A stretch of 64,000 nucleotides of DNA, taken from a virus. Taxonomy: Duplodnaviria > Caudoviricetes. The stretch lies in IMG/VR virus record IMGVR_UViG_2933206877_000003, positions 1 through 64,000 of that record; one strand, given 5' to 3'. Shown here in pieces: positions 366 through 58,919 of this stretch. The first letter of the stretch is position 1. Each line of letters starts with the position of its first letter. The translations under genes and the position numbers were made by a program. The notes under the pieces are model-generated. The model did not search any database. It was not told the origin of the DNA and saw only the letters and a program-made list of their open reading frames with translations.

Positions 366-695
366 CTAGAGCAGCCGCGCGATGGATTCCGGCAGGAACA
401 GGTCGCGCGCTCGGTGCTCGGCCCAGAGGATCGCGACATCCGGTCGTCCGGCGTACGAGGGGCAGATGTCGCAGAGGCGGGTGTGCGGGGCGGGCACGTC
501 GTCGGAGTGGGCCTCCACGATGTGGCGGGAGATGAAGAGTTGTTGGTCTAAGCAGCCGACGTCCGCGCGGATCTTCTCAGCGAGGCCGACCAGGAGTGCC
601 GCGCACTGGTCACACCCGAACATGAACGGCGGTGGAACCGGGAGAGTCTCCTCATTCGGAGTGTCCGTCGGGTCCTCGTGCCGGTCGCTCGTCAC
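366..695 (-). CDS. Cys/His-rich hypothetical protein
   Basis: GTG start after GAAGGAG; CxxC...H...H, CxxC and WAEH motifs typical of small genes upstream of actinomycete tgmA loci. Confidence 0.6.
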   Translation of the reverse strand: MTSDRHEDPTDTPNEETLPVPPPFMFGCDQCAALLVGLAEKIRADVGCLDQQLFISRHIVEAHSDDVPAPHTRLCDICPSYAGRPDVAILWAEHRARDLFLPESIARLL

Positions 696-5284: not shown

Positions 5285-5298
5285 GTATGAAGTTGTGG

Positions 5299-40430: not shown

Positions 40431-42967
40431 AGTCGGCCTCCGTTCTGGTGCTGGGTGATGTGGGCGTTGGCGGCCGCCATGCAGGCCTGCCAGCCCGCGC
40501 GGTCGAGGGTGGCCGAGCGGCCGATGAGCAGCGGCACTCCCCCGCTGCCGCAGGGCCGGCAGGCGGCGGTCCAGGCGCGGCCGGCCGGTGCGGTGCTGAA
40601 CCCGACGGGCGGGAAGTCGGCGGCGCTGACACGCAGGGGGGCGTTCACCGCTTCGGCTCCTGGCCTGCGGTCTTCCGCGGCTGCCCGAACTGGGTGGTCA
40701 GCTGGGCGGTGATGTCGGCCTCGGTGCGTCCGCCCATGAGCAGGATCTTCATGGGCTTCAGGCCGAGTTCGGCGAGCTGCACCACGATCGGCTCGTCGGC
40801 CATGAGGCGGGCCATGTTCTCGCCGGACAGCCCGAGGACCACGACGGCCTGTCCACTGGGCTCGCGCAGGATCGCTTTGATCATTCGCCGATCACCTCCG
40901 CGTCGTCGGCGAGCTGGAGGCCGGCGCGCTCACAGAACTCGGTGAGGTCCATGTCGCCGCCGTACTGCTCGCCGGTGTCGAAGATGGCGATGCGCCCCTC
41001 GGGCGGCTGCGTCCACTGCTCGCTGTCCTCGGTGTCGTACGCGTCGACGGTGCCGATGCCGGACCGGTAGCGCAGGTAGAGGTACTGGCCTTCGACGGTC
41101 CAGGCGTTCCACTGCGAAGGGACGGCTGTGCAGGTACGCACGGCCCGGGCCAGGATCAGCGGAGCGTCGGGCCGCAGCGGCAGCAGCGTGCACGCGTGCT
41201 CGATCCCCCCGGCGCACCGTACGCCGCGGCGGGTCGCGACGTGGAGGTGCTTGCCGGCCTTCACGGCCTGGTCGACGATCGCCGCGGTGATGGCGGCCTT
41301 ACCGGTGCGGCGCGGGTGCTCGACGAGGACCTGGCGTCCGGAGCCGAGCCTGAAGACGCGGCCGAAGTCCATCAGGGCGGCAACCGCAGGGTTCCGGGCC
41401 CACGTCTCGGCGCAGTCCCGGCAGGACACCAGGCCGAGGCCGCGCGTGCACACCGGCTGTCCGCCCTCGATGGCGTGGCGGTTGACCGGATGGGCGCAGG
41501 CAGGGCACGGCGTCGGCTCGGGTGCCCGCCCACGCCGCTCTTGGGCCAAGGCGCGTTCGCGGTTCGGGTACGGGCGGTAGTTCACGACTCGCCTCCGACG
41601 GGCCCGTACTTGCGCTGCCAGTCGTCGTCCTTCTGGCCCAGCCCGTACTCATGCAGGGTGCGGTCGCACACGACGGCGGTGAAGGCCTTGTCCAGTTGCT
41701 CGATCGTGTGCGCCATCGTCCGGGCGATGTTGCTCGGGTCGCTGGACCATTCGGTGTGCTGCGCCAGGTAGTCCAGGCCCTTGAGGCGTCGTTGGTGGTG
41801 GTAGAGGAACGCGTCGCACTGCCGGGCCAAGACTCCGACCAGGGTGGCGAAGTGCGCCGCCGGATCGTCTTCGACGTAGGTGCGGCCGGACGCAGGGTGG
41901 GTGAAGCTGTTGTCAGGCACCCGGTGCCTCCCAGATGACGGTGATGGGCGCGCCATGTCCCTGGGCGACTTTCACGACACCCGGATTGATCCACATGACG
42001 GTCTTCATGGGCAGGTCGAGCGCCTTCAGCTTGAAGCCGGCCTTCTCGGCGGCATCGGCCAGGACGTCGTCGGGACCGTAGTCGACCCCGATCGAGCGCA
42101 TGTAGGAGCCGAAGTCCGGTGCCTCTGAGCGCCAGCTGTACTGCGCGATGTGCTGCTCGATCTCCTCGGCCAAGGCTTCACGGAAGGCCTCGATGTCGGC
42201 CTGGCTGCGCTGCCGGCGGACGAGAGCCGAGACCGAGTTGGCCGGAGTGCTCGACTCGGCGGCGCCGCGGCCCAGGTCGTGGCCCGGCGGCTCGGCGAGC
42301 GTCTTCGCCCACCAGTTGGCGGCGGCGACGGCTTCGGGACGTGGGCTCACGCGGTGCGTCCTTTCGTGGGTACGGGCTTGATCGCGTTCAGGAAGCGGAT
42401 GGTGGCGTCTACGACGTTGCCCGTGAGTCGGTCCCTCTGCGGGTCACCGAATGCGAGGTACTGCATGACCGGTTCCGCGGCCTCCGGCATCGACTCGTCG
42501 ATGCGGGCGCTGCTGGCCATGTACCGTCCGCCGTCGGCGTCCACCGCAGTCATGCATCGCTGCTCGACGCGGCCGGGGATCTCCTGGAAGCGGGGCACCG
42601 ATCCTCCGACTGCCTTGCGGCGCAGGGCTTCCTGAACGGCCGGCTCCGTGGACCCTCCGCTGATCGCGTAGGCCTCGTACCGAAAGGCGGCGCCGATCAG
42701 CCGTCCGACGCCTGGCCTGACGAGCGGGTGTGATCCGTCCGGATGGCGGGGCAGCTGGAGCGCGACAGCGGCCAGCGCGGCAACTGTGGTCGGTGGATGC
42801 CCGGGGGTCGCCCAGACCAGCTCCGGGACCGGCAGCTGAGCGAGGCTCGCGCCGCTGGTGGTCTCATGGATGGTGAACAGCGCCGGTTGCTCGTCCCACT
42901 CGCTTCGCGTACGCAGATGGTCGACAAGCTCGGTCTGCACCGCGTTGACTGTTGCCTGACTGATCAC
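40427..42967 (-). CDS. Six coupled hypothetical phage genes (40427-40648, 40645-40884, 40881-41585, 41582-41920, 41913-42350, 42347-42967)
   Basis: Chain of ORFs with 4-8 nt stop/start overlaps; no recognised family. Confidence 0.6.
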
Positions 42968-43488
42968 GACGTCCTTCCTCCCCTGTTGCGCTGGTCCTCG
43001 AAGTGATCAGCGAGCGAGCGGATCGCGGCGCGCGCCACGGCGACGTTCTGCTTCGGGTCGTCCGCCGCACCGCGGACGCCGCGAAGGACGGTGAGGGCCT
43101 GGCGAAGCGGCTCGTCGAGGACGAGTACGAGCGTGTCGCGGTCGCCGTCGCCAGGCGCCGGCGGTGTCTCGTCCGAACCGTCGCTCGTCTCGCCGGTGTC
43201 GCGCGCCGTCTCCTCGGCCGCCTCGGCTTCCTCGCGCTCGGCGGCCGCGATGTCGCGTCGCACCGTGTCCTTGGAGACGCCGAGCCTGTCACCGATCTCC
43301 CGCAGCGACAGACTCTCGCGCGACAGTCTCAGCGCCTCGATGCGCCGTCGCGCGACGTCGAGCGGCTCGGACGGCGGCGGCTTCGGCGGCTCAGCGAGGC
43401 CCGGCCGTAGCGGTATCACCGGTGTCTCATGCGACGTCTCAGCGCCGTCTCGCGACTGGCGCGCGACGCTGCCTTGGGTGGTGTTCAC
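42964..43488 (-). CDS. HTH DNA-binding protein
   Basis: LSLREIGDRLGVSKDTVRRDI. Confidence 0.75.
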   Translation of the reverse strand: MNTTQGSVARQSRDGAETSHETPVIPLRPGLAEPPKPPPSEPLDVARRRIEALRLSRESLSLREIGDRLGVSKDTVRRDIAAAEREEAEAAEETARDTGETSDGSDETPPAPGDGDRDTLVLVLDEPLRQALTVLRGVRGAADDPKQNVAVARAAIRSLADHFEDQRNRGGRTS

Positions 43489-43738
43489 CGCTCCCCCTCG
43501 CTGCCGCGTCCGGTGTACGACGTCTCGGCGCCGTCGCGCGACGGCGTCTCACTCGTGGCCGGCCGGGCCGGCGCCGTCTTGTCGGTGGGACAGAAGTCGC
43601 CGGCGGTGTCGCATCCCCAGCCGTGCCGCATGCGGGCCATCCGGCGGGCATGCGCGGCGTTCCGGGTCCGCTCCACAGTGACCTTGGCGCGGCAGCCCCG
43701 CCGGTCGCAGAACAGGGTGTGCGCGTAGCCGATCGCCA

Positions 43739-44596
43739 TCACGTGCCTGCCTCTCCGGCCGCGATCCGTTGCGCGAGCGGCCACGCCTCGGCGAGCGGGA
43801 ACCGGGTGTCTGTGCGCTCGGGCTCCCGAAGGTCCTGGCGCTCGTGGACGAAGCCGTGCACGCGGTGCCAGCGGCGGCCCTCACGGTCGCAGATGGCCCA
43901 CCGGTCGCCGCTGGCAGTGCTACGGCGCAGCTGGAGAGGCAGCGCCGAGCCGGTGCACGGGATCTCGAAGACGGTCACGTGCGCCAGCAGTCCGGAGAAG
44001 TCGGGAGTGGGCTCGCCCGTGTGCGACTGGGGACCGCCGCTGGTGCCCTTCTCCCGTTCCGCGTCATCGGCCATGGCCTGGACGATGTCCCGGCAGTGGC
44101 GCCATGCGTCGGCGTACGAACCAGCGTTCAGCGTGCCCTTGAGGTGGTCGGGGAGCTGCATCGCGGCGAGCCGCTCGTCGACCTGGTGCAGCGTCGTGGT
44201 GCGGGCCGCATCGCGTTCCACCTGGGCGCCGAGGATGGCGACGAGCGCGTCCTGCAGCGCGGTCTGTCCCTGGCGAGCGCGCGCGGCGTACCGGTCGGCG
44301 GCGCCGGCGAGCGAGAGGGCGCGGGTGCGGCACAGCTTCCACGCCGTGAGGTAGCGCTCGGCGCGGGCCTCGGCGTCGAGCAGGCGGCGCAGGACGGCGG
44401 CCGCGCGCTCGCCCATGTACGCGGCGAGGTTGAGGCAGTACCAGTCCTCGCTCTGGGTGGTGTGGTCGTGCTCGCGACGGCCCTGGACGGACTTGCCGAA
44501 CGATATGAGCAGACTCGCCCGGGCAGGCTGCGTGTCGCCGAGCTGGGCAGCGAGCGTGGCCCGCTGCTCGGCCGATAGTTCGTCCCGGGCGCTCAT
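43739..44596 (-). CDS. Hypothetical phage protein
   Basis: Coupled ORF. Confidence 0.55.
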   Translation of the reverse strand: MSARDELSAEQRATLAAQLGDTQPARASLLISFGKSVQGRREHDHTTQSEDWYCLNLAAYMGERAAAVLRRLLDAEARAERYLTAWKLCRTRALSLAGAADRYAARARQGQTALQDALVAILGAQVERDAARTTTLHQVDERLAAMQLPDHLKGTLNAGSYADAWRHCRDIVQAMADDAEREKGTSGGPQSHTGEPTPDFSGLLAHVTVFEIPCTGSALPLQLRRSTASGDRWAICDREGRRWHRVHGFVHERQDLREPERTDTRFPLAEAWPLAQRIAAGEAGT

Positions 44597-44964
44597 CGGT
44601 GCTCACCGCGCTCGGCGTGGTCGAGGAGGAGCTGGGCGGCCTGCTTGGCGGACATCAGCCCGTTGCGGTCCCTGAGGGCCCGCTGGATCAGGGCCGCCTC
44701 GGCGGTGAGCCCGTGCTCCTCCAGCAGCCTGACGGTGTGCTTGGCGTGCATCCCGCGTTTCTGGACAGCCGCGCGCTGGATGAGACTGACGGCGGGACTG
44801 CGGTCGACTCGGGCCTGAATCCAGGCGGCAGTGCGTGACCGGTGGAAGTCGGTGCGCTCGCGGGTGCCGCCGTGGCTCATGCACGGCTGGCCGACGGCCG
44901 CGCCGCAGCCCTCCGGCGCGGGCGGGCAGGACACGGTGCGGGGTGTGTGCTCCGGCGTCGTCAT
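44593..44964 (-). CDS. Zinc-finger-like hypothetical protein
   Basis: CP.....CGA..G.PC...H..R motif. Confidence 0.6.
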   Translation of the reverse strand: MTTPEHTPRTVSCPPAPEGCGAAVGQPCMSHGGTRERTDFHRSRTAAWIQARVDRSPAVSLIQRAAVQKRGMHAKHTVRLLEEHGLTAEAALIQRALRDRNGLMSAKQAAQLLLDHAERGEHR

Positions 44965-45227
44965 GTGTCGTCGCCTCCCTTGCGGCGCGGCTTGTAGACG
45001 CCGGCCACCTCCTGCCAGGCCTTGTAGTCGTCGAGGGGCATGCCGCCTTCGTCGTGCGAGTTGTCGTTGAGGGCGGTGGCGGCGGCGGTGGCCAGCAGGG
45101 CGTGGCCGATGGCCTCGGTGGCCAGTGCCTGTCCGGTGACCGGGTCTGCGCCGTCGCCGTAGGTGTAGTGGTGGGCGCGCGCGAGCAGCTGCTCGGCCTC
45201 CCGGTAGTGCTCGGGTCCATGGGCCAT
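44961..45227 (-). CDS. Conserved actinophage hypothetical protein
   Basis: GPEHYREAE.LL...HA.LA.AAATAL; start may be a few codons downstream. Confidence 0.6.
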   Translation of the reverse strand: MAHGPEHYREAEQLLARAHHYTYGDGADPVTGQALATEAIGHALLATAAATALNDNSHDEGGMPLDDYKAWQEVAGVYKPRRKGGDDT

Positions 45228-45802
45228 CAGCCCTCGGCTCCCTTCACGGTGTCAGAGCCGAGCTGGGCGGCCCAGTCGGCGAGGATGGTGAAGTCGTGGT
45301 CGGTGAGGCCCTTGCACGGGTCGACCCAGTGCAACAAGGCGGGGCCCGGGTGGTGCTCGGCGACGTAGGCCCGGTCGATGTCGCCGTGCTGGTCGTCGAC
45401 CCAGGCGAACGGCCGGCCGGCCGCGTACTCGACGATGCGGTGCGTCTTGACGTACGTCCCGTCCGCGCGGTGGGCGAACTGGCTGCCGAACTCGATGACC
45501 GGAAAGTTCTGCGCACGCGGGAGACCGATGCGCCAGCCGATCCACTCGTTGGCGTCGTGCTCCCACGTGGTGGCCCAGACCAGCTCGAACGGCAGGCTTA
45601 GGAGTGCCGCGCCGTGGGCCGGGTTGAGCCACACGCGCAGGGGCTTCACCAGGTGCTCGGGTACGCCGTGGTGCTGGGCAACCCAGGTGTCCGGCTTCAT
45701 CCGGTGCGTCCGGTAGCCGGCGGGACGCCGGTGGGGCGGTGCACCGAACGGGTTCAGCGGCCCGTCCACGTCCAGCAGGAGCAGTGGCGCCGCGCTCGTC
45801 AC
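45227..45802 (-). CDS. HAD-domain protein (HAD_SAK/RNA-repair-associated type)
   Basis: LLLDVDGPLNP, LVWATTW..AN, K, RPFAWVDD, VDP..GL. Confidence 0.78.
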   Translation of the reverse strand: MTSAAPLLLLDVDGPLNPFGAPPHRRPAGYRTHRMKPDTWVAQHHGVPEHLVKPLRVWLNPAHGAALLSLPFELVWATTWEHDANEWIGWRIGLPRAQNFPVIEFGSQFAHRADGTYVKTHRIVEYAAGRPFAWVDDQHGDIDRAYVAEHHPGPALLHWVDPCKGLTDHDFTILADWAAQLGSDTVKGAEG

Positions 45803-47564
45803 TGTCCGGTGTCCTCTCGCGGCGTGCACCGGGGCGCGCCCGGGCACGGGCCGAAGCCGTCGTGCTGCGAGCACTGGAACTGCGACGGGTAGGGGCCGCC
45901 GCCCTCGGCCGGGTCGATGTGCGCGGATGCGAATGCCCAGGCCTGGTCCCGCTCCTTCGTGCGGTACTCGGTCATCAGGTCCTCGGCCGCCTCATGCGCG
46001 GCCGCGCCACCGATGGCCTGCTGGTAGAGCAGCACCCTGTCCTCGGCAAGGATCCGGCGCAGGTGCTGGTCAACCTCGGCCGGTGTGGCGTCGAAGCGTC
46101 CCGGGAGGGCGACAGGCTCGGTGGGCGGCCGGGCGGTGGCGGCCCGTGCGATCCAGGACGCGATTACGGCGACCGTGGACCACTCCCAGTGGGACAGCCA
46201 GTCGATGATGACGCCGTCGTACTCCCCCAGGTCGACGCCGGCGGCGGCGAGCGTGTCCCGGAGGAGTGTCGCCTGCTCCTCCCCGTACCGGAAGCCGGCG
46301 GGCGGCTTCTCGACGGGGCCGGCCGGTATCTCTGTGGTGGTCATGATGGTCCTTCCATGTCTCGCGGGTGGGGTGCGCCGTCGCTCTTGCCGGGCCAGTC
46401 GTGCGCCTTCGGGGCGCCGCACCAGCCCTGTTCGCCGCTGCCGAGCGTCGGGAGGGTCTCGGGCTGGCTTCGGTCGGCGGCGGCGCGGCGGCGCCACTTC
46501 GCGGCCGAAGAGTTCTCGGCGGCGCGAAGAGCGCGGATGCGCTTCGGGTTGGCCATGTCAGTCGTCGAAGCCGGGCAGCCCGCGCGTGTTGAGGCCCAGC
46601 GGGCTTGCGGCGGCGTGCGCATGGTCCAGAGCGGCGCCGAGCAGCTTTGCGGCGGCCTCGGCATTGGCCAGGGCGGTGCGCAGGTGCTCGACCGCATGGC
46701 CCGGGGTGCCGCCCCCGTCGACGGTGACGCGGCCCTCTCCGTGCGTGCGCTGCACGGGCCGCATGGACTGCTCGATAGCCTGCGGCAGCATCCGCACCAG
46801 GTAAGCGAGGGATCCAATCGCGTCGTACGCGTGCGGCGGGTACTGCCAGCCGTCGCCGGTGTTGATGGTGTCGTGGTTGAAGGCACGAACCAGGTCACCG
46901 GCCTTGGACATGGTGTGTCCCGGCGTAGTGCTCATGAGGGTGTCTCTCCTGGAATCTCGAGTAGGGATTCGACGGCGCGTACGGCTTCGAGGTCGAGGAC
47001 CTGGCGCAGGAGCGCCGCCTGTTCGTCGGTGAGGCGGGGCCGGGCTGCGGCGCGCACGGGGCGCTTCATCAGCACGGGCACGTCGAGGCGGATGCCGAGC
47101 ACGGCGCCGTCGGGGCCGTAGGCGATCTCGTAGCCGGACGGGGTGATGTACCAGGCTTCGTACGCCTCGGCGGGCTTTCCGGCGCGCGATGCCTGCACGG
47201 CGACCAGGGCGGCCACGGCGGCGGGCAGCGTCGTCCGGTACCGGTCCATCGAGCCGTTCAGCATCGGGCAGACGGCGACGGCGTAGTCCAGGCACTCGGG
47301 GTGCATGCCGGGCTCGTCGACGTAGCCGACGCCGGCGTCCGCCGGGCGCACGACCAGCCCGATGCGGCGGCCGAGCGGCTGGCGGCAGAACTGGCAGGCC
47401 CGGTGCGTGATGCACTGGATTCGGCGGATCGGGAAGTTGATCCCGAAGGACGGGCGGCCGTCGAACCAACCAGTGATCCACGGGACGGCCAGGCCGCCGC
47501 GGCGCGGCAGGGCTGCGGCACGCGCGGGCGGTCGGACCGCTCGTGAGCGGCGGGGCTTCGGCAT
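45799..47564 (-). CDS. Four coupled hypothetical genes (45799-46344, 46341-46556, 46558-46935, 46932-47564)
   Basis: Overlapping ORFs; 46932-47564 has VPWIT...CQFC...EP.MH.EC..YA...CP. Confidence 0.55.
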
Positions 47565-47659
47565 GGTGGGATCTCCAGGTGGGGCCCCGGCGGCGGGAAG
47601 CGCGCGCCAGCGCGCCGAAGCGCGGGTCGCGTGTCCGGCCGCCCGGGCGGTCTAGCCGG

Positions 47660-48088
47660 TCAGCTCTCGGCGATCTCACGGAGGCGGTGCAGCGCCGTGG
47701 AGGCGTCGGCGTAGAAGAACGTCTCGCCGGGCTTGAGACCGAGGACCTCTGCCCCAACCTGGGCGATCAGGCGGCGCTCCTCGCCCTTCTGCGCGAACGT
47801 GCGCACGGTGACCGTCTCATCGGTGCCATCGGGCTGTCGCACCAGGACTTGCGTCCTGCTGTCGTCGTCGAGGGCGACGATGGTCCAGCCCGCCGCGCGG
47901 GCAGCCCATCCGGCGGCGCACAGCGTCGTCCCACATTCGGGCTCGGCGTCCGGAGGCAGCTGTCCAGCGTCGGGGAAGTAGACCCAGTCCTCCATGTCGA
48001 AGGCGTGGGGCTGTGCTTCGATCGCGTCGAGGACTGCCGACGCGACGGCGGCGGGCGTGGCGGGGTACTTCGTGACCGTGTCGGTCAT
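47660..48088 (-). CDS. Conserved actinophage hypothetical protein
   Basis: FDM..W...CGTT.C.AGWA motif. Confidence 0.65.
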   Translation of the reverse strand: MTDTVTKYPATPAAVASAVLDAIEAQPHAFDMEDWVYFPDAGQLPPDAEPECGTTLCAAGWAARAAGWTIVALDDDSRTQVLVRQPDGTDETVTVRTFAQKGEERRLIAQVGAEVLGLKPGETFFYADASTALHRLREIAES

Positions 48089-48120
48089 GGCAACTCCATT
48101 ACCGTGGAGAGGCGTTGGAG

Positions 48121-48193
48121 TGGTGCTGGCGGGACTCGAACCCGCGACCCAGGACTTATAAGATCCGCGCTCTGCCAACTGAGCTACAGCACC
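48121..48193 (-). tRNA. tRNA-Ile(UAU); CCA not encoded
   Basis: GGTGCTG TA GCTC AGTTGGCA GAGC G CGGAT CT-TAT-AA GTCCT GGGTC GCGGG TTCGAGT CCCGC CAGCACC A. Confidence 0.88.
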
Positions 48194-48290
48194 GTGTTAT
48201 TGAGTTGTGGGGTGGGCCGCGCCTCGCAGAGCGGGGCGGGAGCGCGGGGCGCGGCCCTGGCGGCGGTAGATCGCTACGGCCGCCGGTCTG

Positions 48291-49496
48291 TCAGGCCCGG
48301 GTGAGCAGCATCAGCCGCTTGTGGGCCTTGTTCTTCATGTCGTCGTCGGCGCCTTCGAGGGCGGCGGTGGCGCGGGCCATCTCCTCGGTCATGGTCTTGC
48401 CGGGGCGGCGTGGGGCGACGTGGTCGAGGTAGCCGGTGATGGCCCGCTCGGCGGCGTAGGCGGTGCGGCCGACGCGCTCGGTCTCGGTGCGGAAGACGTC
48501 GTCGAGGGCGCCGAGCCGTGCGGCGTGGTTGTTCTTGGTCCTGTCGGTGGCGTCGTCGTCGAGGGGCCACAGATCGGCGATGACCTTGCGGAAGTCGGTG
48601 ACGGCCATGTCCGTCCGGGCGAGCGCGGTCTCCTCGGCGGCGTACTTCTCGAAGTAGTCGAGGGACAGACCGAGGGTGCGGCGGGCTTCCTTGATCTGGT
48701 CGACGGCGCCTGCGGTGTGGCGGACGGCCCAGCGGGTGTGTGCGTCGCGTACGGCGAACCGCTCGGTGTTGGCGCAGACGGGGCGCCACGGGGTGACGAC
48801 GCACTGGAAGGTGCCCTGCCCGGTGTGGTCGTTCATGACGGCCACGTACGGGACGATCGTGTCGTTGATGCCGTCCGCCTCGATCGCGACCGTTTCGGGG
48901 AGCCGGATGGAGATGAACACCCGGCGACCGCCCTTGATGACTCCGGCGGACTCCCAGACCACGTCGTAGCGTCCGACCAGTTCCTGAAGGAACTCGAAGC
49001 CCTGCCGGTTCTGGATCGGCTCGTATCGGCGGCCGACGACGCCGAGCGCGGCGCCGCTGTCCTCCCGGACCGTGTGGAAGTGGTCGGAGTGCTCGCGGAG
49101 TTCGCCGCCCCACTGGTACAGGGCGGGGACGGTGGTGACGGTGAAGTCGAGACCGCCCGCGCGGAGCACCGTGTCGATGTCGGTGATGCCGCCGGGGATG
49201 ATCTGACCGAGGCCGTGCCAGGCCGGGGACGACGCGTACAGGGCGATCGTGCCGTCCGCCCGGGAGTCGAGGCCGTGGTTCGCGAGGATCGCGTCGATGG
49301 CGCCCTGTGCGTTCCGGGAGACGGTGAACCGCTCGCCCCGGTCCCAGCCGGTGAGTACCTCGTACTGCTCGCCACCGACGAGGCGGATCTCGCCCCGGTC
49401 GATGCGGGCCTGGAACGCCTGCTCGCGGCTTCGCGCGGCGTCGATCTGGTGGGTCTTCTCGTCGGCGAACGCGGTGTTGACGTCGGTGATGGTCAC
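48291..49496 (-). CDS. DUF932 family (phage/plasmid-like) protein
   Basis: PAWHGLG, LGVVG.RY..IQN..F, ESAG...GGR..F, N.H.G, TP.R.VC.NT, RHT motifs. Confidence 0.88.
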   Translation of the reverse strand: MTITDVNTAFADEKTHQIDAARSREQAFQARIDRGEIRLVGGEQYEVLTGWDRGERFTVSRNAQGAIDAILANHGLDSRADGTIALYASSPAWHGLGQIIPGGITDIDTVLRAGGLDFTVTTVPALYQWGGELREHSDHFHTVREDSGAALGVVGRRYEPIQNRQGFEFLQELVGRYDVVWESAGVIKGGRRVFISIRLPETVAIEADGINDTIVPYVAVMNDHTGQGTFQCVVTPWRPVCANTERFAVRDAHTRWAVRHTAGAVDQIKEARRTLGLSLDYFEKYAAEETALARTDMAVTDFRKVIADLWPLDDDATDRTKNNHAARLGALDDVFRTETERVGRTAYAAERAITGYLDHVAPRRPGKTMTEEMARATAALEGADDDMKNKAHKRLMLLTRA

Positions 49497-49527
49497 GGTG
49501 ACCCCTTCGGATGGTGGGTGTCTGTCG

Positions 49528-49602
49528 TGGTGGGCCCGGTCGGAGTTGAACCGACGACCGGCGGTTTTAAGGCGCCTGCTCTGACCGCTGAGCTACGGGT
49601 CC
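49528..49602 (-). tRNA. tRNA with UAA anticodon (reads UUA, Leu by anticodon) on a short-variable-arm body; CCA encoded
   Basis: GGACCCG TA GCTC AGCGGTCA GAGC A GGCGC CT-TAA-AA CCGCC GGTC GTCGG TTCAACT CCGAC CGGGCCC A CCA; mismatches at 3:70 and 31:39. Confidence 0.78.
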
Positions 49603-49651
49603 GGGTGGCGGCCGGGCCGGGGGGGGATGAGCCCGGCCGCCGGTCTGTTGC

Positions 49652-49897
49652 TCAGCCGCAGGCGGCGGAGCGGGTGAGGGATTCGCGGCGGACGTGGTGC
49701 GGGCCGGGCCGTTCGCCCCAGGGGTCGCCGAGCGCGAAGCGGGCGTCCGGCAGGCCGAGGACGTCCATCGCGCGGCAGATCTGGCAGGGGCACGGGATGG
49801 CGAGCCAGAGACCGTGCAGGGACCGGATGGACCCGTGGTAGATGACCAGGTCTCCCGGCTCGATCAGATCGAGTGACCGGATCAGCGTGTCCGACAT
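49652..49897 (-). CDS. Small Cys-containing hypothetical protein
   Basis: ATG after GGGGGAG; YHGS...CPCQIC. Confidence 0.6.
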   Translation of the reverse strand: MSDTLIRSLDLIEPGDLVIYHGSIRSLHGLWLAIPCPCQICRAMDVLGLPDARFALGDPWGERPGPHHVRRESLTRSAACG

Positions 49898-49922
49898 GAC
49901 TCCCCCTCGGGCGATCGGTGGG

Positions 49923-50282
49923 CTACGGGTGGTTGCGGACGGGTCCGTTGCCGGGCGTCCACCGCATGGCGTCGCCGCTGACGAACGTGGCCCGGTGGGG
50001 ACGCACTGTCGGTGCGGCGGGGATGTGGCGGTGTCCGGCGGTGCGGCCGTATCGGTCCCACGCGGCCCTGAGAACGTGGGTCTCTTCCGGCCGGTAGGCC
50101 ATGACCTTGCGGAATCGGCCGTTGATCCACCGGAAGGCTCGGCCGGGTTCACGCCGGTAGCTCTGCCGGTAGATCTCGGCGGCGACTCGGCCGAGCGGAG
50201 AGCCATAGCGCCAGTCGGCCGGGAGACCCCGCTGAACGAGGTATTCGGCGACCGTGATTCGGCGGCTGACCAGCACAGACAT
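49923..50282 (-). CDS. Basic hypothetical protein
   Basis: ATG after GGAGGG; first gene behind the divergent promoter. Confidence 0.6.
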   Translation of the reverse strand: MSVLVSRRITVAEYLVQRGLPADWRYGSPLGRVAAEIYRQSYRREPGRAFRWINGRFRKVMAYRPEETHVLRAAWDRYGRTAGHRHIPAAPTVRPHRATFVSGDAMRWTPGNGPVRNHP

Positions 50283-50324
50283 GGCTTCCCTCCCCGGTTC
50301 GGAGTCCCTTGCTTCTCTTCCAGG

Positions 50325-50396
50325 ATAGGCCGAGAATGCGGCCTATGGAAGGGGTAAGTCAAAGAAAGTACGAGACATTCCGAGAGGGTCTTTGAC
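50325..50396. promoter_or_regulatory. Divergent promoter/operator region
   Basis: Minus-strand TTGACT-N18-CATTCT; the -10 is flanked by the 8-bp inverted repeat ATAGGCCG/CGGCCTAT; GTCAAAGA-N23-TCTTTGAC gives back-to-back -35 boxes. Confidence 0.6.
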
Positions 50397-50444
50397 ATGA
50401 CGACACTGCACGACAGGCCGGGTATCTGGCCTACGGAACATGCG

Positions 50445-50720
50445 ATGATCAACGCCATGGCCCGCAGCAACTACGAACCGCCCGACGATGCGGCCGAACT
50501 TTTCGCCCGGATCAAGAGGGCTCACGACACCCTCCGGGAACTGCGCGGCCCGCTCCAGGAGATGGCCGTCCGCGAGATGCGGGAGGGCGGGGCCACCGTC
50601 GGCGACCTCGCCCGTCTCACCGGCTACGACCCGGAGAAGTACCGGCTCATGGCCAGGGCCGCCGGCGTCGAGCGCCGGCGGCCGCCGACCCGGGGCCAGG
50701 TCAGCGACTCAAGCGACTGA
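50445..50720 (+). CDS. Small putative HTH repressor
   Basis: GATVGDLARLTGYDPEKYRLMARAAGV; divergent from the tRNA/DUF932 operon. Confidence 0.6.
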   Translation: MINAMARSNYEPPDDAAELFARIKRAHDTLRELRGPLQEMAVREMREGGATVGDLARLTGYDPEKYRLMARAAGVERRRPPTRGQVSDSSD

Positions 50721-50731
50721 CCCTCCCAACA

Positions 50732-51298
50732 TCAGCCGACATGGTTCGCCGTCAGCAGGTACAGCCGGGTTCCCTCGTAGCGGGCCGGCTGCCCAGTCTC
50801 GCCGTCCTCACAGGCATCGTTGATGCACCAGGCGCGCGGCCGGTCATCGTCCGCGCGGCCATACACGGTCCGCTGCCCACACGTCAGGCAGAGGGCGTGC
50901 CGGAAGTGCACGCTGGGCCCGCGCAGGCCCAGCACGGTGAGCACCGTGCCGTGCCACCGGCTGACCAACTGCCGTACCTCCGGCTCACGACCAGCATTCT
51001 CGGCGCCCGGCGGAATCGCGGGCAGAGCCCGGTACCAGGGCTGCGTGTGCGGCGAACCGCGCAGCTCGGCGTCCAGCTGCACAGCCTCGCTCTTAATGCG
51101 CTGCGACCACGAGACGGCCTCCAGTGACGTCGGCGGTCGGGATCCCGGTGGCGCGTGGCCACCGACGGCTGGCTGCCGGGTACGGAGGCCGAGCGTGTCC
51201 AGCCGATGGAGGAGCCCGGGGCCGTCGTCGCCGGGGTGCTGCTCGTCGCCGGTGTACCGGCTGATGAGGTCGGCGACCAAGCCGTCAAGCGTCTGCAT
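50732..51298 (-). CDS. Zn-ribbon-containing phage protein
   Basis: PGSRPP..L.A...CLTCG...C.N..C. Confidence 0.6.
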   Translation of the reverse strand: MQTLDGLVADLISRYTGDEQHPGDDGPGLLHRLDTLGLRTRQPAVGGHAPPGSRPPTSLEAVSWSQRIKSEAVQLDAELRGSPHTQPWYRALPAIPPGAENAGREPEVRQLVSRWHGTVLTVLGLRGPSVHFRHALCLTCGQRTVYGRADDDRPRAWCINDACEDGETGQPARYEGTRLYLLTANHVG

Positions 51299-52058
51299 GA
51301 GCCGCCCTCGTCTTCCGTGCCCAACGTGATTTGCCGCGCTCGGACTCGCAGGCGCGGCAAACGCGTTCGCCGCGCCTGCCTGGCTTCGGGTTCGGTCGGC
51401 GGTAGGTGTTCTCCGGGGTCATCTCGTGCGGCCCCTTACCGCCCTGGCAGTGCGTCGCCAACGGCTTGGTGCGCGAGCCGACCCGGCGGTCCGTACCCTT
51501 CACCGGTGGTGCGGTCTCCGGCGCGTACCAGTGAGCGCGGAACCTGCGACGGGCGGAGGTCATGCGCTGCGTCAGCGTCGAGTACTTGATGCCGAGCGCG
51601 TCCGCGGCGGCCTGGTAGTCGCCGTGCACAGCGAGCGCGACGACGGCCTCCCGCTCGGTTTCCGTGAGCACGCCCAGGATCTGCGGTACGGCAACGCGTT
51701 CGGCGATGCCCTCCTCCGGGCGTGCGGGCGGCAGGGTCCAGTACTGCCGGAACCGCTGCGACGAGGCGACCTCGTTGGTGCCGTCCTTGTCGCGTTGCCC
51801 GAACAGGTGCCGCATCTCGCGGACCTCGGCGTAGATCGCGCGCCAGCCGACGGTGAACAGATCGTGCCACTCGGGCGGCTCGGCCGCGGAGCAGAGGGCC
51901 TCGGCGATGGCGGACCAGGCGACGTCGTAGCGGGTGGTGGCGTCGGAGGCCATCGACCGGTCGTAGGAGCAGCTGGAGGCTGCCAGTTTGTGGAGGTCGC
52001 GCAGCGAGTAGCCGTGCGCCACTGGAAGTTCTGCCGCCAGGTTGTTCAGGCTGTTCAC
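51285..52058 (-). CDS. Sigma-70 region-4-like HTH protein with C-terminal THC...H...CRAC motif
   Basis: LTETEREAV...YQAAADALGI..ST...RM..ARRRF. Confidence 0.65.
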   Translation of the reverse strand: MNSLNNLAAELPVAHGYSLRDLHKLAASSCSYDRSMASDATTRYDVAWSAIAEALCSAAEPPEWHDLFTVGWRAIYAEVREMRHLFGQRDKDGTNEVASSQRFRQYWTLPPARPEEGIAERVAVPQILGVLTETEREAVVALAVHGDYQAAADALGIKYSTLTQRMTSARRRFRAHWYAPETAPPVKGTDRRVGSRTKPLATHCQGGKGPHEMTPENTYRRPNPKPGRRGERVCRACESERGKSRWARKTRAAHADA

Positions 52059-55000
52059 CGTGTTCCCTCTCTCATCAGCGTGAACAGGTCCTCGATCTCG
52101 ACGATGTCGAGCCGATCCCACGTGGCGAGGGCGTCGCGCAGCTTGACGTCCAGCTGGGCGGCGAGGGCGGCCTGCGTCCAGTGAAGGGCCATGTCGCGCG
52201 CCTCGTCGGGCGACAGCGCGCCCTTCATGGAGCCCCGGCCGATGTGCACATACGGCTTGCCGGTCTTGGCGCCGGCGACCGCGGCGATCCGGAGAGCGCA
52301 CCGGCCCTCGGGCATCGGCCGGCGCCCGCGGACCATGCCGAGCACGCCACCGAGAGTGTCGTCGTCGGCATTGAAGTCCTGCCGGAACGTCTCGATGAGG
52401 GCGATGTCGGTCTCGGCTGCGCTCGCGGCGGCCATCAGCTCGCGAGCCGTGTTCAGCACGACGAAGACGGGGATGACCCCGCCGGTGCTCCCCCACCGCA
52501 TCAGGCAGGCCGGCTGGCCGTCATCGTCCAGGGTCGACTGGATCGTGCATATCCCGTCAGGCATCGGTGCCCTCCCCTGCGCTCCAGCGGATGTTGCGGA
52601 TGCCGTGGGCCAGCACTTCCATGCCGAAGCGGTCTCGCGGCAGCTCCACCCGGGCGCGCGGGTAGATGCGGTACCGCTCCAGGTCGAAGGTGCAGACGGC
52701 CTCCGTGCCGCGGCCGTCCGGGTCCGGCTCATAGCGGACCGGCCAACGGGCCACGAGCCGCCGGGCGTACCAGCGGCGGGCGTGACGTGCCTTCCACATC
52801 TGCCAGGTGGACGCCGGCACCTCGTACGGCACGCGAGTGCGCTGGGTAAGGCGCTGAGGCGGCAGGTCGTCGGCGAGGATCCTGGTCCGCAACTGGAAGA
52901 GGAACTGCCGGAAGAGGACCTCTCGCTGTACTGAGACGTCGAGGTCCAGGAGCAGCTCCTCGGCGACCGCGAACTGCATTGCGTACTGCTTGAAGGCGAG
53001 CGTGACCCGCTCTTCGTTGAGCACTACTCGCCTCCCTCGGAACGGGAGGCGGTAATCAGCGCCTTGAGGAGTTCCAGGGCCTGCTTCTCGGTGAAGCCGG
53101 CCTCGATCCATGCGAGGAATACTTCGTGATGCAGGGCAGCCTGAGCCGCGAGTTCGGTGACCGGCGAGTCGCAAGGCTCGAAGTCGTCGGGCACGTCAGG
53201 CCTTCCCGTGGTTCAGGATCCGCTCGGCCGTCGACCAGGTGCCGCATGGCCAGGTGATGATCGAGCCTTGGACGGAGCAGGCCGAGCACAGCGCGCCGGG
53301 TTTCGTGGGGTCGGCGTGGGGCTGGGGGCGGTGGCTGTCGCGGAGCGCGGCCAGATCGGTGCGCACGCGCGTGATCTCGGCGCAGGCCTGGCTGCCGGCC
53401 ATCAGCCCCTGACGCACGCTCTCCATGACAGCCTTGGCCTCGGCCGGGCTGGGGGTTGTGCCGGGTTCCCGGATCATCATTCGGACCATCCCGAGGACCG
53501 CGTCGGCGAGGGCCGTGTTGACCTTGTCCAGGTCGAAGGGCTGCGGGCTCGTACTCGGAGGAGTGAAGGGCAGGTCAGGCATCGGTGGCCTCCGTGTCGG
53601 TCGGAGCAGCGCTCGTGCGTGCGTCGGCCTCGGCGCGTCGGGCGTCGAAGGTGACGATGACGTGCTCGTCGTCGGCGGACACGTAGACATCACCCGTCCA
53701 CATGCCGCCTGCGGCGAGCTGGCTGCGCTGCTGGTTGGCGACGGCCATGGCCTTGTCGACCTCGGTGTGGTGGGCCGGCCCCTTCATCTGCCACACATGC
53801 CGGTCGATCGTGATGACGTGGTGCTCGGCGCCCATCAGGACTCCTCAACGGTGTAGTTGGTGGTCACGTGGACCAGGCGGAACTCGAATTCGGGGTGACG
53901 CTGCCTACGTCTGGTCAGGTCGTCGGCGGCCCGCTGCCGGTCGGAGGTGGGTCGCACGGGCAGCCAGACGTCGGCGTGGCGGTACTCGACTCGCCATGCC
54001 TCGCGCGCCGGATGTGCCTCGACGGGTACCGCCGGCCACTCCACGGTCGCGCCGTGGTAGCCCTCCAGCAGGTGTTCCAGCGACGTGGCGACCGTGGCGA
54101 AGCCGTACTCGGGGTCATCGAGGACGAACACGCGGCCGGAGGGGAACTCTGCGCCGTCGAGGTACTGACTGTCGGACAGGTGAAGGCGGAAGCCGCGGGT
54201 GAAGACGGGTTGCATCAGCTTTCTCCGCTCGCACGCATCAGGCGCTCGTAGATGGAGGCGCCGCTGAGCCGGTCCTCGATGTGGCCGGACCGGCCGCGTC
54301 CGGGGTCGGTGAGGCCACTGATGGCGCGGGCCACGGCGAGAGCGGGGCACGGCAGGTTGAACAGGTTCCGCCGGCTGTCGCAGTAGCCGCACTCGCTGTC
54401 GGGCAGGTGGATGACGGCTGCGTCCTCCAACCATCGGATCAACGGCTCACGAGCGCCCAGCAGGACCCGGATCATCTCCAGCAGTTCGCGACTGTTGCAG
54501 TCGACGAGGAAGCCATCGCAGTTCCGATCGTCGCGGAGCCGGGCCGCGGCCGCGCGCAACTCCTCGGCTGGGTTGGTAGTGGTCACTGGTCACCTTCCTG
54601 AGTGCTGAGCCACTGCGGTTCGGGGGCGATGCGGAGCAGCGCCGTGCGATCCTCTGAGGCCGCGAACTCGGGGGCTTCGGGATCGACGTACCGGTGGCCC
54701 TGGTCGTTGCGGAGGTAGGCGGTGTAGCGAATGACCGGCCCGAATGCGGTGGGCTCGATGACCATCTCGGAGTCCACCGGCACGTCGATCGGGTCGATGC
54801 CGTGCAGACGGAGCCAGCGCTGTACGGACCGGAGCCCGTCGGGCTGGCCGATCACCCTGTCCAACAGCTCGTGGCAGTCGATAACAAGACGCTCCATCAC
54901 GGCAGTGACACCTCCAGCCGCCGGCGCCCGCTGCGGTCCTGCTGCGTGGGCACGACATGGAAGCCGCCGCTGCGTAGCTCGGCCTCGATCCCCTTCAGCT

Positions 55001-56304: not shown

Positions 56305-56561
56305 CGGTTGTACTCCCCTGCTTCGGCACGGTCGATCAGGAGCTGGATGTAGGTGCGGGCCTTGCAGAGGTCCTCGATGCCGTTCTTCTTCCGCCAGCGG
56401 AGCAGGTATTTCAGGGCGTTGCCCTCGTAGAAGTCCAGGCTGAAGGCGTTGATCACGTCGAAGGGCTGCATTCCGGTGCCGCGGTAGTGGTCCGGTGTCC
56501 AGTCCTTGGGCCCTGGCGCCAGCGGCGTGCTGGCGGCTTTCACGGTCTTCTCATCGGCCAT
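56301..56561 (-). CDS. DUF3310 family protein
   Basis: PDHY...F..GNALKY..R..KKNG.EDL.KA..YI. Confidence 0.85.
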   Translation of the reverse strand: MADEKTVKAASTPLAPGPKDWTPDHYRGTGMQPFDVINAFSLDFYEGNALKYLLRWRKKNGIEDLCKARTYIQLLIDRAEAGEYNR

Positions 56562-58066: not shown

Positions 58067-58233
58067 TGCTCTCCCGCCCCTCGGCCGTGGCGGAAGCCGA
58101 GGCGGATGCAGATGGCGCCGACGGTGACGACGGCCAGGGCGGCGGCGAGCAGCCACCAGCCGGTGACGGCGACTCCGCCGACGACGAGGACTCCGGCGGT
58201 GCCGGTGCGGGCGAGCTGTGCGTTGTCGGACAC
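58063..58233 (-). CDS. Tiny membrane peptide with LAxTG motif
   Basis: GTG start after GAAAGAGAA; LARTG, hydrophobic stretch, basic tail; 4-nt overlap with the GT2. Confidence 0.6.
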   Translation of the reverse strand: MSDNAQLARTGTAGVLVVGGVAVTGWWLLAAALAVVTVGAICIRLGFRHGRGAGEQ

Positions 58234-58243
58234 GGGTTCTCTT

Positions 58244-58919
58244 TCAGGGCTGCTGGTGGTCGGGGTCGTGCGTGCCGAGCGCGCCGATGGCGCGGCAGGT
58301 GCTGAGGTCGTCTGATCTGGCACGGCGCCGGGTGCGGCGCGAGCGGGCCCGGGCGGCCAGGTCGTCGCTCGCGGCGAGCATGCCGAGGGCGCAGACCACG
58401 ACCAGGGCCAGGCCGAAGGAGCCGATGGCGCCCCCGACGGCGGCCACGATGAGGACCTGGAGCGGCGTCATCGCTGCCTCCGCTGCCGGGTGGCGGCGTA
58501 GATCGAGTAGGTGGCGCCTCCGGCGCACATGGCGCCGCTGACGAGGAAGGAGAGCGCCCACAGCCGCAGGTCGCGGTAGGCGGCGTCGAGGCCGCCGAGC
58601 AGGCACGCGAGGGCAAGCAGCGTGCAGAACCAGTGGTCGGCCAGGCCGAAGCAGAGGCCTGCGACGGCGGCCAGGGCGATGCCGATCGCGATCAGGCTCA
58701 GGGTGGACATGGGGTGCCTCGGGTGGGGTTGTAGTTGTCGATGGGCGGGAGGGTGTCGATGTCGCGGATGCGGCCTCGGAGGATGACCGCTCGGCCTTCG
58801 GCGATGTCGTCGGCTGTGCGGAGGTCGTCTTCGTCTGGCTCGTCTTCCGCGCAGGGGCAGTAGCCGTGGGCGTCGCAACCGCCGTGCGGGCAGATGAAGC
58901 GGGCGGGTTGCTCGGTCAC
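58244..58919 (-). CDS. Three small genes (58244-58471 and 58468-58710 membrane proteins; 58698-58919 Cys-rich)
   Basis: Coupled ORFs with TM segments or Cys clusters. Confidence 0.5.

What the first reader, a model, noticed from the sequence alone, without database searches (positions are those of the whole stretch)
49528..49602. Prophage tRNA with the bldA anticodon (UAA) on a class I, Phe-like body
Seen: a cloverleaf with encoded CCA, anticodon loop CU-UAA-AA, a variable region of only 4 nt, discriminator A, and two stem mismatches (3:70, 31:39). Established: in Streptomyces the rare UUA codon is read only by the bldA tRNA, which gates sporulation and antibiotic genes, and bacterial tRNA-Leu normally has a long variable arm. 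The loop is one substitution from Phe CU-GAA-AA. A manual, incomplete spot check found no in-frame TTA in the main phage genes. Inference: the tRNA may bypass or perturb host bldA control, may insert a non-Leu residue at UUA, may act as an uncharged decoy, or may be decaying.
Basis: partly seen in the sequence, partly recalled or inferred. Interest (0 to 1): 0.82.

Follow-up and report, generated by a model that had tools for sequence, protein, structure and literature searches.

The report
Prophage tRNA reading the bldA codon
A Streptomyces prophage carries a well-formed short-armed tRNA that reads the host's rare developmental codon UUA, and its relatives bear the mark that normally means "load alanine", so which amino acid it delivers is open and testable.

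Summary
Window 49528-49602 (- strand) is a real tRNA gene (Rfam 57.9 bits, ARAGORN) with anticodon UAA, a 4-nt variable loop, A73, encoded CCA, and A3.C70 and C31.C39 mismatches. The record is a 74-kb virus record whose relatives are Streptomyces prophages.

The body is not specifically Phe-like. Its nearest host tRNAs are Thr, Met, Val and Arg(UCU).

I found six same-body homologues: four with UAA, one with UAU, one degenerate, none with GAA. With the window copy, five of seven carry UAA. Five of the seven carry G3.U70 with A73 and G2-C71, the alanine identity set. In a complete host tRNA set that pair occurs only in tRNA-Ala. The window copy has lost it (A.C).

These phages hardly use TTA. 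This genome has two credible codons in about 19,000, and both sit where homologous proteins mostly have Phe.

Best reading, about 0.55: a functional UUA decoder that does not depend on bldA, paired with tRNA-Ile(UAU). Its amino acid is unresolved (Leu, Phe or Ala). The main rival, about 0.3, is a decaying copy. No expression or charging data exist.

The parts
49528..49602 (-). Class-I tRNA gene: anticodon UAA, A73, encoded CCA, A3.C70 and C31.C39 mismatches, 4-nt variable loop.
   Evidence: ARAGORN; Rfam tRNA 57.9 bits; cloverleaf minimum-free-energy fold; family alignment and pair counts.
49608..49641 (-). G+C-rich hairpin (about 12 pairs, no U tract) ending a few bases 5' of the tRNA, between the upstream ORF and the tRNA. 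It may be a terminator or a processing structure.
   Evidence: Fold of 49497-49665 on the - strand. The promoter and terminator scan found no sigma-70-like site in 47800-50600.
48291..49496 (-). DUF932 / phrog_1221 gene directly downstream of the tRNA. I used it as the anchor to find syntenic prophages.
   Evidence: Pfam PF06067 1.4e-59; phrog_1221 6.4e-72; related loci.
48120..48193 (-). Partner tRNA-Ile(UAU), which reads the rare codon AUA. It has a normal acceptor stem (U3-A70).
   Evidence: ARAGORN; Rfam 68.4 bits. A tRNA with anticodon tat lies downstream of the DUF932 gene in 8 of 15 related loci, and beside the UAA tRNA in L019 and L021.
366..695 (-). Small conserved hypothetical gene (109 aa as filed in the protein collection) with one of the two credible in-frame TTA codons, at 549-551. 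Five of its 7 homologues have Phe at that column.

Best explanation
The feature is a genuine and probably functional elongator tRNA gene carried by a Streptomyces prophage.

Its UAA anticodon pairs with UUA, and by wobble probably with UUG. UUA is the rarest host codon, and the host reads it only through the developmentally limited bldA tRNA.

The gene belongs to a small family of prophage tRNAs (seven copies found) that travel with a tRNA-Ile(UAU) gene. Together the two give the phage its own decoders for the two rarest A-ending codons, independent of the host bldA gene and of lysidine-modified tRNA-Ile2.

The tRNA is not a copy of bldA or of any leucine tRNA, and leucine cannot be assumed as its amino acid:
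- The family's acceptor stem is alanine-type (G1-C72, G2-C71, G3.U70, A73). Most members are therefore predicted to be substrates of AlaRS.
- In the window copy the G.U has become A.C, which probably weakens or removes that identity.
- This copy would then be charged by LeuRS (A73-based, and blind to the anticodon and the long arm), by PheRS (A35, A36, A73, U20), or poorly by any enzyme.

My split for this copy: Leu 0.25, Phe 0.15, Ala 0.10, mixed or other 0.05, not functional 0.35-0.45.

Shown: the gene, its structure, its relatives, their anticodons and 3:70 pairs, and the codon census. Inferred: expression, charging, and any effect on host UUA-containing genes.
For: Real and intact:
- Rfam 57.9 bits and a cloverleaf fold.
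- On the 7-member alignment 95.2% of pair cells are standard pairs.
- The window copy carries a compensatory C-G to U-A change in the T stem.

Anticodon kept: 5 of 7 members have UAA, 1 UAU, 1 is degenerate.

Recurrent pairing with tRNA-Ile(UAU), seen in the window, L001, L011, L019 and L021.

No faster decay than its partner. Among window, L001 and L011 the UAA tRNA is 78-84% identical, the Ile tRNA 71-82% and the DUF932 coding DNA 83.5-86.6%.

The acceptor stem looks constrained. In that synteny-found trio the UAA tRNA's 5' acceptor strand differs at one base, while the Ile tRNA's acceptor stems differ throughout.

Alanine mark:
- G.U at 3:70 in 5 of 7 members, G-C in 1, A.C in 1.
- Among 60 distinct tRNAs of complete genome G001, G3.U70 occurs in 3 of 3 tRNA-Ala and 0 of 57 others.
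- Host tRNA-Ala(CGC) has an acceptor stem that differs from the family's only at pair 6:67.
- The review lists the bacterial alanine identity set as A73, G2-C71, G3.U70, G4-C69 and G20.

Leucine remains possible:
- The review says E. coli LeuRS needs A73 and D/T-loop tertiary contacts, not the long arm or the anticodon.
- Three Streptomyces genomes carry a 76-nt short-armed tRNA(CAA) with A73, and the class-II Leu(CAA) seen in two other genomes was not detected in them.

The phage has something to read: two credible TTA codons.
Against: - Nothing shows expression or charging. No promoter-like site was found, and a strong hairpin lies just upstream.
- The copy has two stem mismatches, one of them at the family's presumed identity pair.
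- Its closest relative by position, L011, has C70, a broken anticodon loop and no CCA. It looks like a decaying gene.
- The slot upstream of the DUF932 gene holds a tRNA in only 4 of 16 elements: the window plus L001, L002 and L011 among the 15 related loci. The tRNA is therefore dispensable.
- Codon demand is tiny. G000 has 5 candidate TTA (2 credible) in 19,149 codons. G003, which carries an intact G3.U70 copy, has 2 doubtful ones in 17,470. The regions around three other UAA-bearing copies (G086, G338, G222) have no credible TTA.
- A host baseline made with the same caller gives 2 TTA in 38,611 codons, and ATA at 0.65 per 1000 against 0.63 in the phage. Neither tRNA matches a raised codon use.
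- Family size is only seven, and four members were found by similarity to the window tRNA. That biases them towards a similar acceptor stem.
Confidence: 0.55

Rival explanations
1. Decaying or neutral remnant. The ancestor of this copy lost its identity pair (U70 to C, as in L011), and the gene is now drifting. It is transcribed little or not at all and does nothing in translation.
For: - A3.C70 and C31.C39 mismatches.
- L011, in the same slot, has C70, a disrupted anticodon loop, no CCA and only 47.5 bits.
- The slot is empty in 12 of the 15 related loci.
- The phage has almost no TTA codons.
- No promoter-like site.
Against: - All invariant tertiary nucleotides are intact.
- The T stem carries a compensatory double change.
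- Relative to L001, two other pairs are better formed in the window copy (27:43 and 49:65).
- CCA is retained.
- Divergence is no greater than that of the partner tRNA-Ile(UAU).
- One anticodon-stem mismatch is typical of the UAA members. All 5 with an intact UAA loop have one, at 27:43 or 31:39, so C31.C39 is not a special sign of decay.
Confidence: 0.3
2. Alanine decoder. The family, and perhaps still this copy, is charged by AlaRS and reads UUA as Ala. That would give the prophage a way through UUA codons, in its own genes or the host's, that needs neither bldA nor LeuRS.
For: - G3.U70 with A73, G2-C71 and G1-C72 in L001, L017, L019 and L021. L018 has G3.U70 with G1.U72.
- G3.U70 is exclusive to tRNA-Ala in the host set.
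- The review says G3.U70 transplanted into other tRNAs confers alanine acceptance, and that some mispairs at 3:70 keep activity in vivo.
- Natural allo-tRNAs with G3:U70 and non-Ala anticodons were tested for alanylation in E. coli (PMC5389517, passage seen).
Against: - The window copy has A.C, not G.U. The review states that G3-C70 and A3-U70 abolish alanylation, and the active mispairs it lists are C-C, C-U and G-A, not A-C.
- The family has C4-G69 and C20 rather than the G4-C69 and G20 of the E. coli set, although host tRNA-Ala(CGC) also has C4-G69.
- L018 joins the same body to UAU, in a region with 16 ATA codons in 8,807. Reading those as Ala would be costly.
- G1.U72 is a reported antideterminant for E. 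coli AlaRS.
Confidence: 0.1
3. Phenylalanine decoder. After losing G.U, this copy is charged by PheRS and reads UUA as Phe, so that TTC-to-TTA changes in the phage are silent.
For: - Both credible TTA codons lie at columns where homologues have Phe. In the YqaJ-family exonuclease (genome 69247-69249) the column holds F in 57 and L in 3 of 60 sequences, the query included.
- In the small protein at window 549-551, 5 of 7 homologues have F, 1 has L and 1 has V.
- The tRNA has A35, A36, A73 and U20.
- Unlike its relatives, the window copy has an extra D-loop base that gives U20, and a short variable loop.
Against: - There are only two codons.
- TTC to TTA is a single transversion, Phe to Leu is conservative, and Leu occurs in other homologues at both columns. 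Ordinary mutation explains the pattern.
- G34, which the review names as the strongest PheRS determinant, is absent, and so is U59.
- The body is not closest to tRNA-Phe.
Confidence: 0.15
4. Non-translational role: an uncharged decoy, a primer, or an attachment-site remnant.
For: Nothing specific. A role of this kind would fit the lack of codon demand.
Against: - The gene is a complete tRNA with CCA, not the 3' fragment that is typical of attachment sites.
- The longest run I saw shared with the nearest host tRNA, Arg(UCU), is about 14 bases, read by eye.
- Conservation of the anticodon in 5 of 7 members points to codon reading.
Confidence: 0.05

Closest known systems
bldA, the Streptomyces tRNA-Leu(UAA)
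   Same: Same anticodon, and an A36-A37-A38 loop, so the same codon is read. It probably needs the same MiaA/MiaB modification of position 37 that the Introduction of PMC10732093 describes as important for bldA tRNA function (passage seen).
   Different: bldA is a class-II tRNA of 84 nt with a long variable arm and acceptor stem GCCCGGA. The phage tRNA is class I, 72 nt before the CCA, and unrelated in sequence: host bldA is not among its ten nearest host tRNAs. It lies on a prophage, not at the chromosomal bldA locus.
Phage-encoded tRNAs for codons that are rare in the host
   Same: It sits in a phage element beside a second rare-codon tRNA (Ile-UAU), as phage tRNA sets often do (general knowledge, recalled).
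   Different: The usual rationale does not hold here. These phages use TTA and ATA no more than the host does.
Dual-identity mistranslating tRNAs of Streptomyces and Kitasatospora (tRNAProX)
   Same: Same genus, and the same idea: the identity elements for one amino acid joined to an anticodon for another (abstract of PMC10404621).
   Different: Those tRNAs have a proline body with Asn or Thr anticodons and lie next to a dedicated ProRS isoform. Here no synthetase-like gene lies nearby, the mark is alanine-type, and nothing has been tested.
allo-tRNAs with G3:U70 and non-alanine anticodons
   Same: Natural tRNAs that carry G3:U70 with anticodons for other codons, including Leu codons (PMC5389517, passages seen).
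   Different: allo-tRNAs have 8/4 or 9/3 acceptor/T branches and a long variable arm. This family is a canonical 7/5 class-I cloverleaf.
Animal mitochondrial tRNA-Leu(UUR)
   Same: A class-I tRNA with a UAA anticodon, A73 and mismatches in the anticodon arm that is nevertheless leucylated, with identity resting on A73 and A14 (review PMC9976931).
   Different: It is organellar and has its own LeuRS. There is no evolutionary link, so it serves only as a precedent that a short-armed UAA tRNA can carry leucine.

Membership tests
tRNA (Rfam RF00005) | Covariance-model score above the gathering score, with a cloverleaf fold. | tested here: met
   57.9 bits against a gathering score of 29; ARAGORN call; the minimum-free-energy fold is the cloverleaf.
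Bacterial tRNA-Leu (class II) | Long variable arm. | tested here: not met
   The variable loop is 4 nt. The host class-II Leu tRNAs are 84-86 nt in G001 and 83-88 nt in G081.
Bacterial tRNA-Leu (class II) | A73 discriminator and G18-G19 / A14 tertiary nucleotides. | tested here: met
   Read from the sequence. The element list comes from review PMC9976931.
Bacterial tRNA-Leu (class II) | A15-U48 pair and A20a (E. coli set). | tested here: not met
   G15 and C48, and C at 20a, by my numbering. Whether Streptomyces LeuRS needs these elements is unknown.
bldA orthologue | Sequence relatedness to the host tRNA-Leu(UAA). | tested here: not met
   Host bldA is not among the ten most similar host tRNAs.
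tRNA-Phe | G34, A35, A36 and A73, plus U20 and U59 in E. coli. | tested here: not met
   U34 and C59 are present in place of G34 and U59. A35, A36, A73 and U20 are present. In body similarity Phe falls outside the top ten.
Alanine-identity tRNA (AlaRS substrate) | G3.U70 wobble pair. | tested here: not met
   The window copy has A3.C70. Five of 7 family members have G.U.
Alanine-identity tRNA (AlaRS substrate) | A73 and G2-C71. | tested here: met
   (G2-C71 in 7 of 7 members, A73 in 7 of 7).
Alanine-identity tRNA (AlaRS substrate) | Actual alanylation. | not testable with these tools
   Needs an aminoacylation assay or mass spectrometry.
tRNAProX-type dedicated mistranslation system | A dedicated synthetase isoform encoded next to the tRNA. 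| tested here: not met
   None of the neighbouring ORFs I scanned in 40881-52732 gave a Pfam or PHROG match to a synthetase.
allo-tRNA | 8/4 or 9/3 acceptor/T branch. | tested here: not met
   7-bp acceptor stem and 5-bp T stem.
Nonsense suppressor tRNA | Anticodon complementary to a stop codon. | tested here: not met
   The anticodon UAA reads UUA/UUG. ORFs are intact under table 11, and the stops of the 90 called genes are TGA 80, TAG 8 and TAA 2.

The most novel reading that the evidence does not exclude
This prophage tRNA family gives the bldA codon UUA a private, non-leucine meaning. The G3.U70 members would read it as alanine. The window copy, which has lost G.U, may read it as phenylalanine: both of its credible TTA codons replace a Phe that is conserved in homologues. 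A temperate phage could then translate UUA-containing messages, its own or the host's developmental ones such as adpA, at times when the host cannot.
Probability: 0.28. Interest if true: 0.9.

Novelty: new variant of a known kind. Interest (0 to 1): 0.68.

Why it matters
In Streptomyces, UUA is a translational switch. The bldA tRNA is its only reader (abstract of PMC2000904), and UUA is described as gating development and antibiotic production.

A mobile element that brings its own UUA reader could uncouple that switch in lysogens or during infection.

The idea can be tested directly with standard laboratory strains. It would also give a compact tool for bldA-independent expression of TTA-containing gene clusters.

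If the gene proves to be a decaying remnant, the family still records how phage tRNAs change anticodon (UAA to UAU on one body) and lose identity marks.

Tried and rejected
- Codon-supply explanation: rejected. TTA and ATA are no more frequent in the phages than in host DNA.
- Phe-like body: rejected on similarity. The 77% match to tRNA-Phe of Streptomyces phages JustBecause and Kela is generic similarity in the T arm and acceptor stem.
- Attachment-site remnant and ochre suppressor: considered and rejected (full tRNA with CCA; anticodon reads UUA; stop usage).
- Dedicated synthetase nearby: none found.
- More family members were sought without success:
  - exact and degenerate patterns in IMG/VR gave 0 hits and then 1, the L001 record;
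  - the pattern in 401 genomes sampled from the family gave 6 hits, all anticodon TCT;
Of 80 loci returned, 77 were readable, with anticodons TCT 53, TTT 11, TCG 13 and no TAA or TAT. The 3:70 column of that script was one base out of register and I do not use it.
- Known phage records: no close homologue of the tRNA, and no Streptomyces phage matched host bldA by blastn (3 records, none from Streptomyces). I did not survey all Streptomyces phage tRNA sets. The 40-kb stretch of JustBecause that I looked at holds 10 tRNAs, none of them Leu.
- TTA control in related loci without the tRNA: uninformative. Nearly all hits lay in over-extended N termini or in shadow ORFs.
- Expression: no RNA holder was listed for 47900-49900, and read laying was not used.
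- Literature: searches found no report of a phage tRNA with a UAA anticodon on a class-I or G3:U70 body, judged from the listings. Supplements were closed and may hold tRNA tables.
- My gene calls are a crude GC3-based caller, not a trained gene finder.

Full report
**What is there**

ARAGORN places a tRNA with anticodon taa at 49528-49602 on the - strand. Rfam's tRNA model scores it at 57.9 bits and flags two non-standard pairs, at 3:70 and 31:39. The sequence reads:
- acceptor stem GGACCCG/CGGGCCC (A3.C70)
- a standard 4-bp D arm
- anticodon arm GGCGC-CUUAAAA-CCGCC (C31.C39)
- variable loop GGUC
- T arm GUCGG-UUCAACU-CCGAC
- A73, then CCA

It folds as a cloverleaf on its own.

A second tRNA, Ile(UAU), lies 1.3 kb downstream at 48120-48193 (68.4 bits). 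ARAGORN's third call, Ala(cgc) of 94 nt at 54454-54547, has no Rfam support.

**Where it is**

The window is part of a 74,091-base virus record with 69.8% G+C, and nearly all of its genes lie on the - strand.
- It encodes capsid, portal, protease and tape-measure proteins.
- The capsid protein is 61-64% identical to those of Mycobacterium phages and prophages.
- Relatives of the DUF932 gene next to the tRNA are two IMG/VR proviruses and prophage regions in 13 Streptomyces genomes.
- One of the record's own proteins is filed on a 907-kb contig.

So this is a Streptomyces prophage.

**Relatives of the tRNA**

In 15 syntenic loci, the slot upstream of the DUF932 gene holds one of the following:
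- a same-body tRNA in L001 (UAA, CCA) and in L011 (broken anticodon loop, no CCA);
- a tRNA-Ile(UAU) in L002;
- nothing recognisable in the other 12.

A blastn search of 401 genomes of the genus gave four more same-body tRNAs: L017, L019 and L021 with UAA, and L018 with UAU. The other 26 of the 30 best loci were host tRNA-Arg(UCU) (18) and tRNA-Thr(UGU) (8).

L017 and L018 lie upstream of a homologue of window gene 46932-47564. L019 and L021 have a tRNA-Ile(UAU) 320-370 bases away. The family therefore belongs to a recurring prophage module.

The anticodon tally is 5 UAA, 1 UAU, 1 degenerate and 0 GAA.

**Body and identity**

I fetched all 74 Rfam tRNA matches of one complete Streptomyces genome (G001). 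ARAGORN called 72 of them, giving 60 distinct sequences.
- The window tRNA is closest to Thr(UGU) at 0.74, then to Met, Val(UAC) and Arg(UCU) at 0.72. Its relatives are closest to Arg(UCU) at 0.78-0.80. Phe is not in the window's top ten.
- The host bldA tRNA is an unrelated class-II tRNA of 84 nt.

The striking feature is the acceptor stem. Five of seven family members have G3.U70 (L011 has G-C, the window copy A.C), together with G2-C71 and A73 in all seven. In the host set, G3.U70 occurs in all three tRNA-Ala species and in none of the other 57. Host tRNA-Ala(CGC) has the family's acceptor stem apart from pair 6:67.

The review PMC9976931 (passages seen) states the following:
- The bacterial alanine set is A73, G2-C71, G3.U70, G4-C69 and G20.
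- G3.U70 transplanted into other tRNAs confers alanine acceptance.
- G3-C70 and A3-U70 abolish alanine acceptance, while a few mispairs (C-C, C-U, G-A) keep activity in vivo.
- G1.U72 blocks E. coli AlaRS.

On that basis most family members are predicted to be AlaRS substrates. The window copy has changed both bases of the pair, and its identity is open.

Within the trio found by synteny (window, L001, L011), the UAA tRNA's acceptor stem is almost fixed, while the tRNA-Ile(UAU) acceptor stems differ throughout. That pattern is what one expects if identity sits in the acceptor stem of the first tRNA and in the anticodon of the second.

**Is the window copy alive?**

For:
- all invariant nucleotides are present;
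- the T stem has a compensatory change, and 95.2% of pair cells are standard pairs;
- CCA is kept;
- divergence from L001 and L011 (78-84%) is similar to that of the partner tRNA (71-82%) and of the flanking gene (83.5-86.6%);
- every UAA member has one mismatch at an end of the anticodon stem.

Against:
- the lost G.U pair;
- the visibly degenerate L011;
- the empty slot in most relatives;
- no promoter-like site and a strong hairpin just upstream;
- no RNA data.

**Codon demand**

With a GC3-based gene caller:
- G000 has 5 candidate in-frame TTA in 19,149 codons, and none more in the gaps between calls.
- Three of the five lie in an over-extended N terminus or in doubtful + strand ORFs.
- G003, which has an intact G3.U70 UAA tRNA, has 2 doubtful TTA in 17,470 codons.
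- The regions around L017, L019 and L021 have no credible TTA.
- Host DNA gives 2 TTA in 38,611 codons. ATA is at 0.65 per 1000 in the host against 0.63 in the phage.

The tRNAs therefore do not answer a raised codon use.

The two credible TTA codons are at window 549-551, in a small conserved protein, and at genome 69247-69249, codon 369 of a YqaJ-family exonuclease that lies outside the window. Both fall in columns where homologues mostly have Phe: F in 5 of 7 homologues, and F in 57 of 60 sequences.
- This may be ordinary TTC-to-TTA mutation with a tolerated Phe-to-Leu change. Leu does occur in other homologues at both columns.
- It is also what Phe decoding of UUA would produce.
- Two codons cannot decide between these.

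**Can a short-armed tRNA carry leucine here?**

The review says E. coli LeuRS needs A73 and D/T-loop contacts, not the long arm or the anticodon.

I also found a 76-nt tRNA(CAA) with A73 and a 5-nt variable loop in G001, G002 and G341. In those three genomes the class-II Leu(CAA) of G081 and G004 was not detected. If that tRNA is their UUG reader, Streptomyces LeuRS accepts short-armed substrates. This is an inference.

A 76-nt tRNA(UAG) with A73 is identical in three further genomes.

**Verdict**

The finding gains an unexpected layer in the alanine-type acceptor stem of its family. I rate a functional, bldA-independent UUA decoder at about 0.55, with the amino acid unresolved, and decay at about 0.3.

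Its A36-A37-A38 loop suggests it would still need the MiaA/MiaB modification described for bldA tRNA (PMC10732093, passage seen). Any bypass would therefore act on tRNA supply, not on modification.

It is a new variant of known kinds: phage rare-codon tRNAs, and dual-identity tRNAs such as tRNAProX (PMC10404621, abstract) and G3:U70 allo-tRNAs (PMC5389517, passages). I found no report of it in the searches.

Noticed in passing
window 3276-4949 (-) and 5156-5430 (-): A TROVE/Ro60-type gene (Pfam PF05731, 7.6e-17) is followed by tRNA-like and Y-RNA-like elements: an Rfam tRNA hit at 5210-5355 with an 89-nt insert, and partial YrlA hits of 41.4 and 21.9 bits, below the gathering score of 69. This looks like a prophage-borne Rsr/Y-RNA module.
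   Followed up: partly
window 39534-40430 (-) and 45227-45874 (-): An RlaP 'RNA repair pathway' nucleotidyltransferase (2.7e-18) and a weak HAD_SAK_2 'Swiss Army Knife RNA repair' match (26.2 bits, just under the cut-off of 27.5). Together with Ro60 this suggests an RNA-repair theme in the phage.
   Followed up: no
L018 1496-1569 (-), in G212: The same tRNA body as the UAA family, in the same module position as L017, but with anticodon UAU and with G1.U72 as well as G3.U70. This is an anticodon switch on one scaffold. The surrounding 40 kb has 16 ATA codons in 8,807.
   Followed up: partly
L089 31-106 (-) in G001; L224; L225: A 76-nt tRNA with anticodon CAA, A73 and a 5-nt variable loop occurs in three Streptomyces genomes. 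In those genomes the class-II tRNA-Leu(CAA) seen in G081 and G004 was not detected. It may be a native short-armed leucine tRNA.
   Followed up: partly
L243 1511-1586 (-), L244, L245: A 76-nt class-I tRNA with anticodon UAG (the Leu codon CUA), A73 and G3-C70 is identical in three different Streptomyces genomes. No G000 or G003 phage protein matched within the 3-kb flanks.
   Followed up: no
window 48120-48193 (-) and its relatives: The partner tRNA-Ile(UAU) is kept in most related prophages, but its acceptor stems differ widely and are compensated (GGUGCUG, AGCGCCG, CACGCUG, GCCUCCG and others). An ATA codon in the GT2 glycosyltransferase (window 56561-58156) is conserved between G000 and G003.
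   Followed up: partly
window 54454-54547 (+): ARAGORN calls a 94-nt tRNA-Ala(cgc) here. Rfam gives no match, and the call overlaps a - strand ORF (54215-54586). It is probably a false positive. ARAGORN made a similar call in L011.
   Followed up: no
window 58916-59623, 61134-61889 and 62939-64000 (-): A WhiB-like regulator, a TerF-type vWA protein and a DUF5131 protein are encoded in the prophage.
   Followed up: no
G001 host tRNA set (L054-L091): Only about 12 of 60 distinct host tRNA genes appear to encode CCA (by eye from the ARAGORN output), whereas the window tRNA and L001 do. The host also holds several odd extra tRNAs, for example Cys(gca) and Pro(cgg) that share the acceptor stem CGACGUG.
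   Followed up: no
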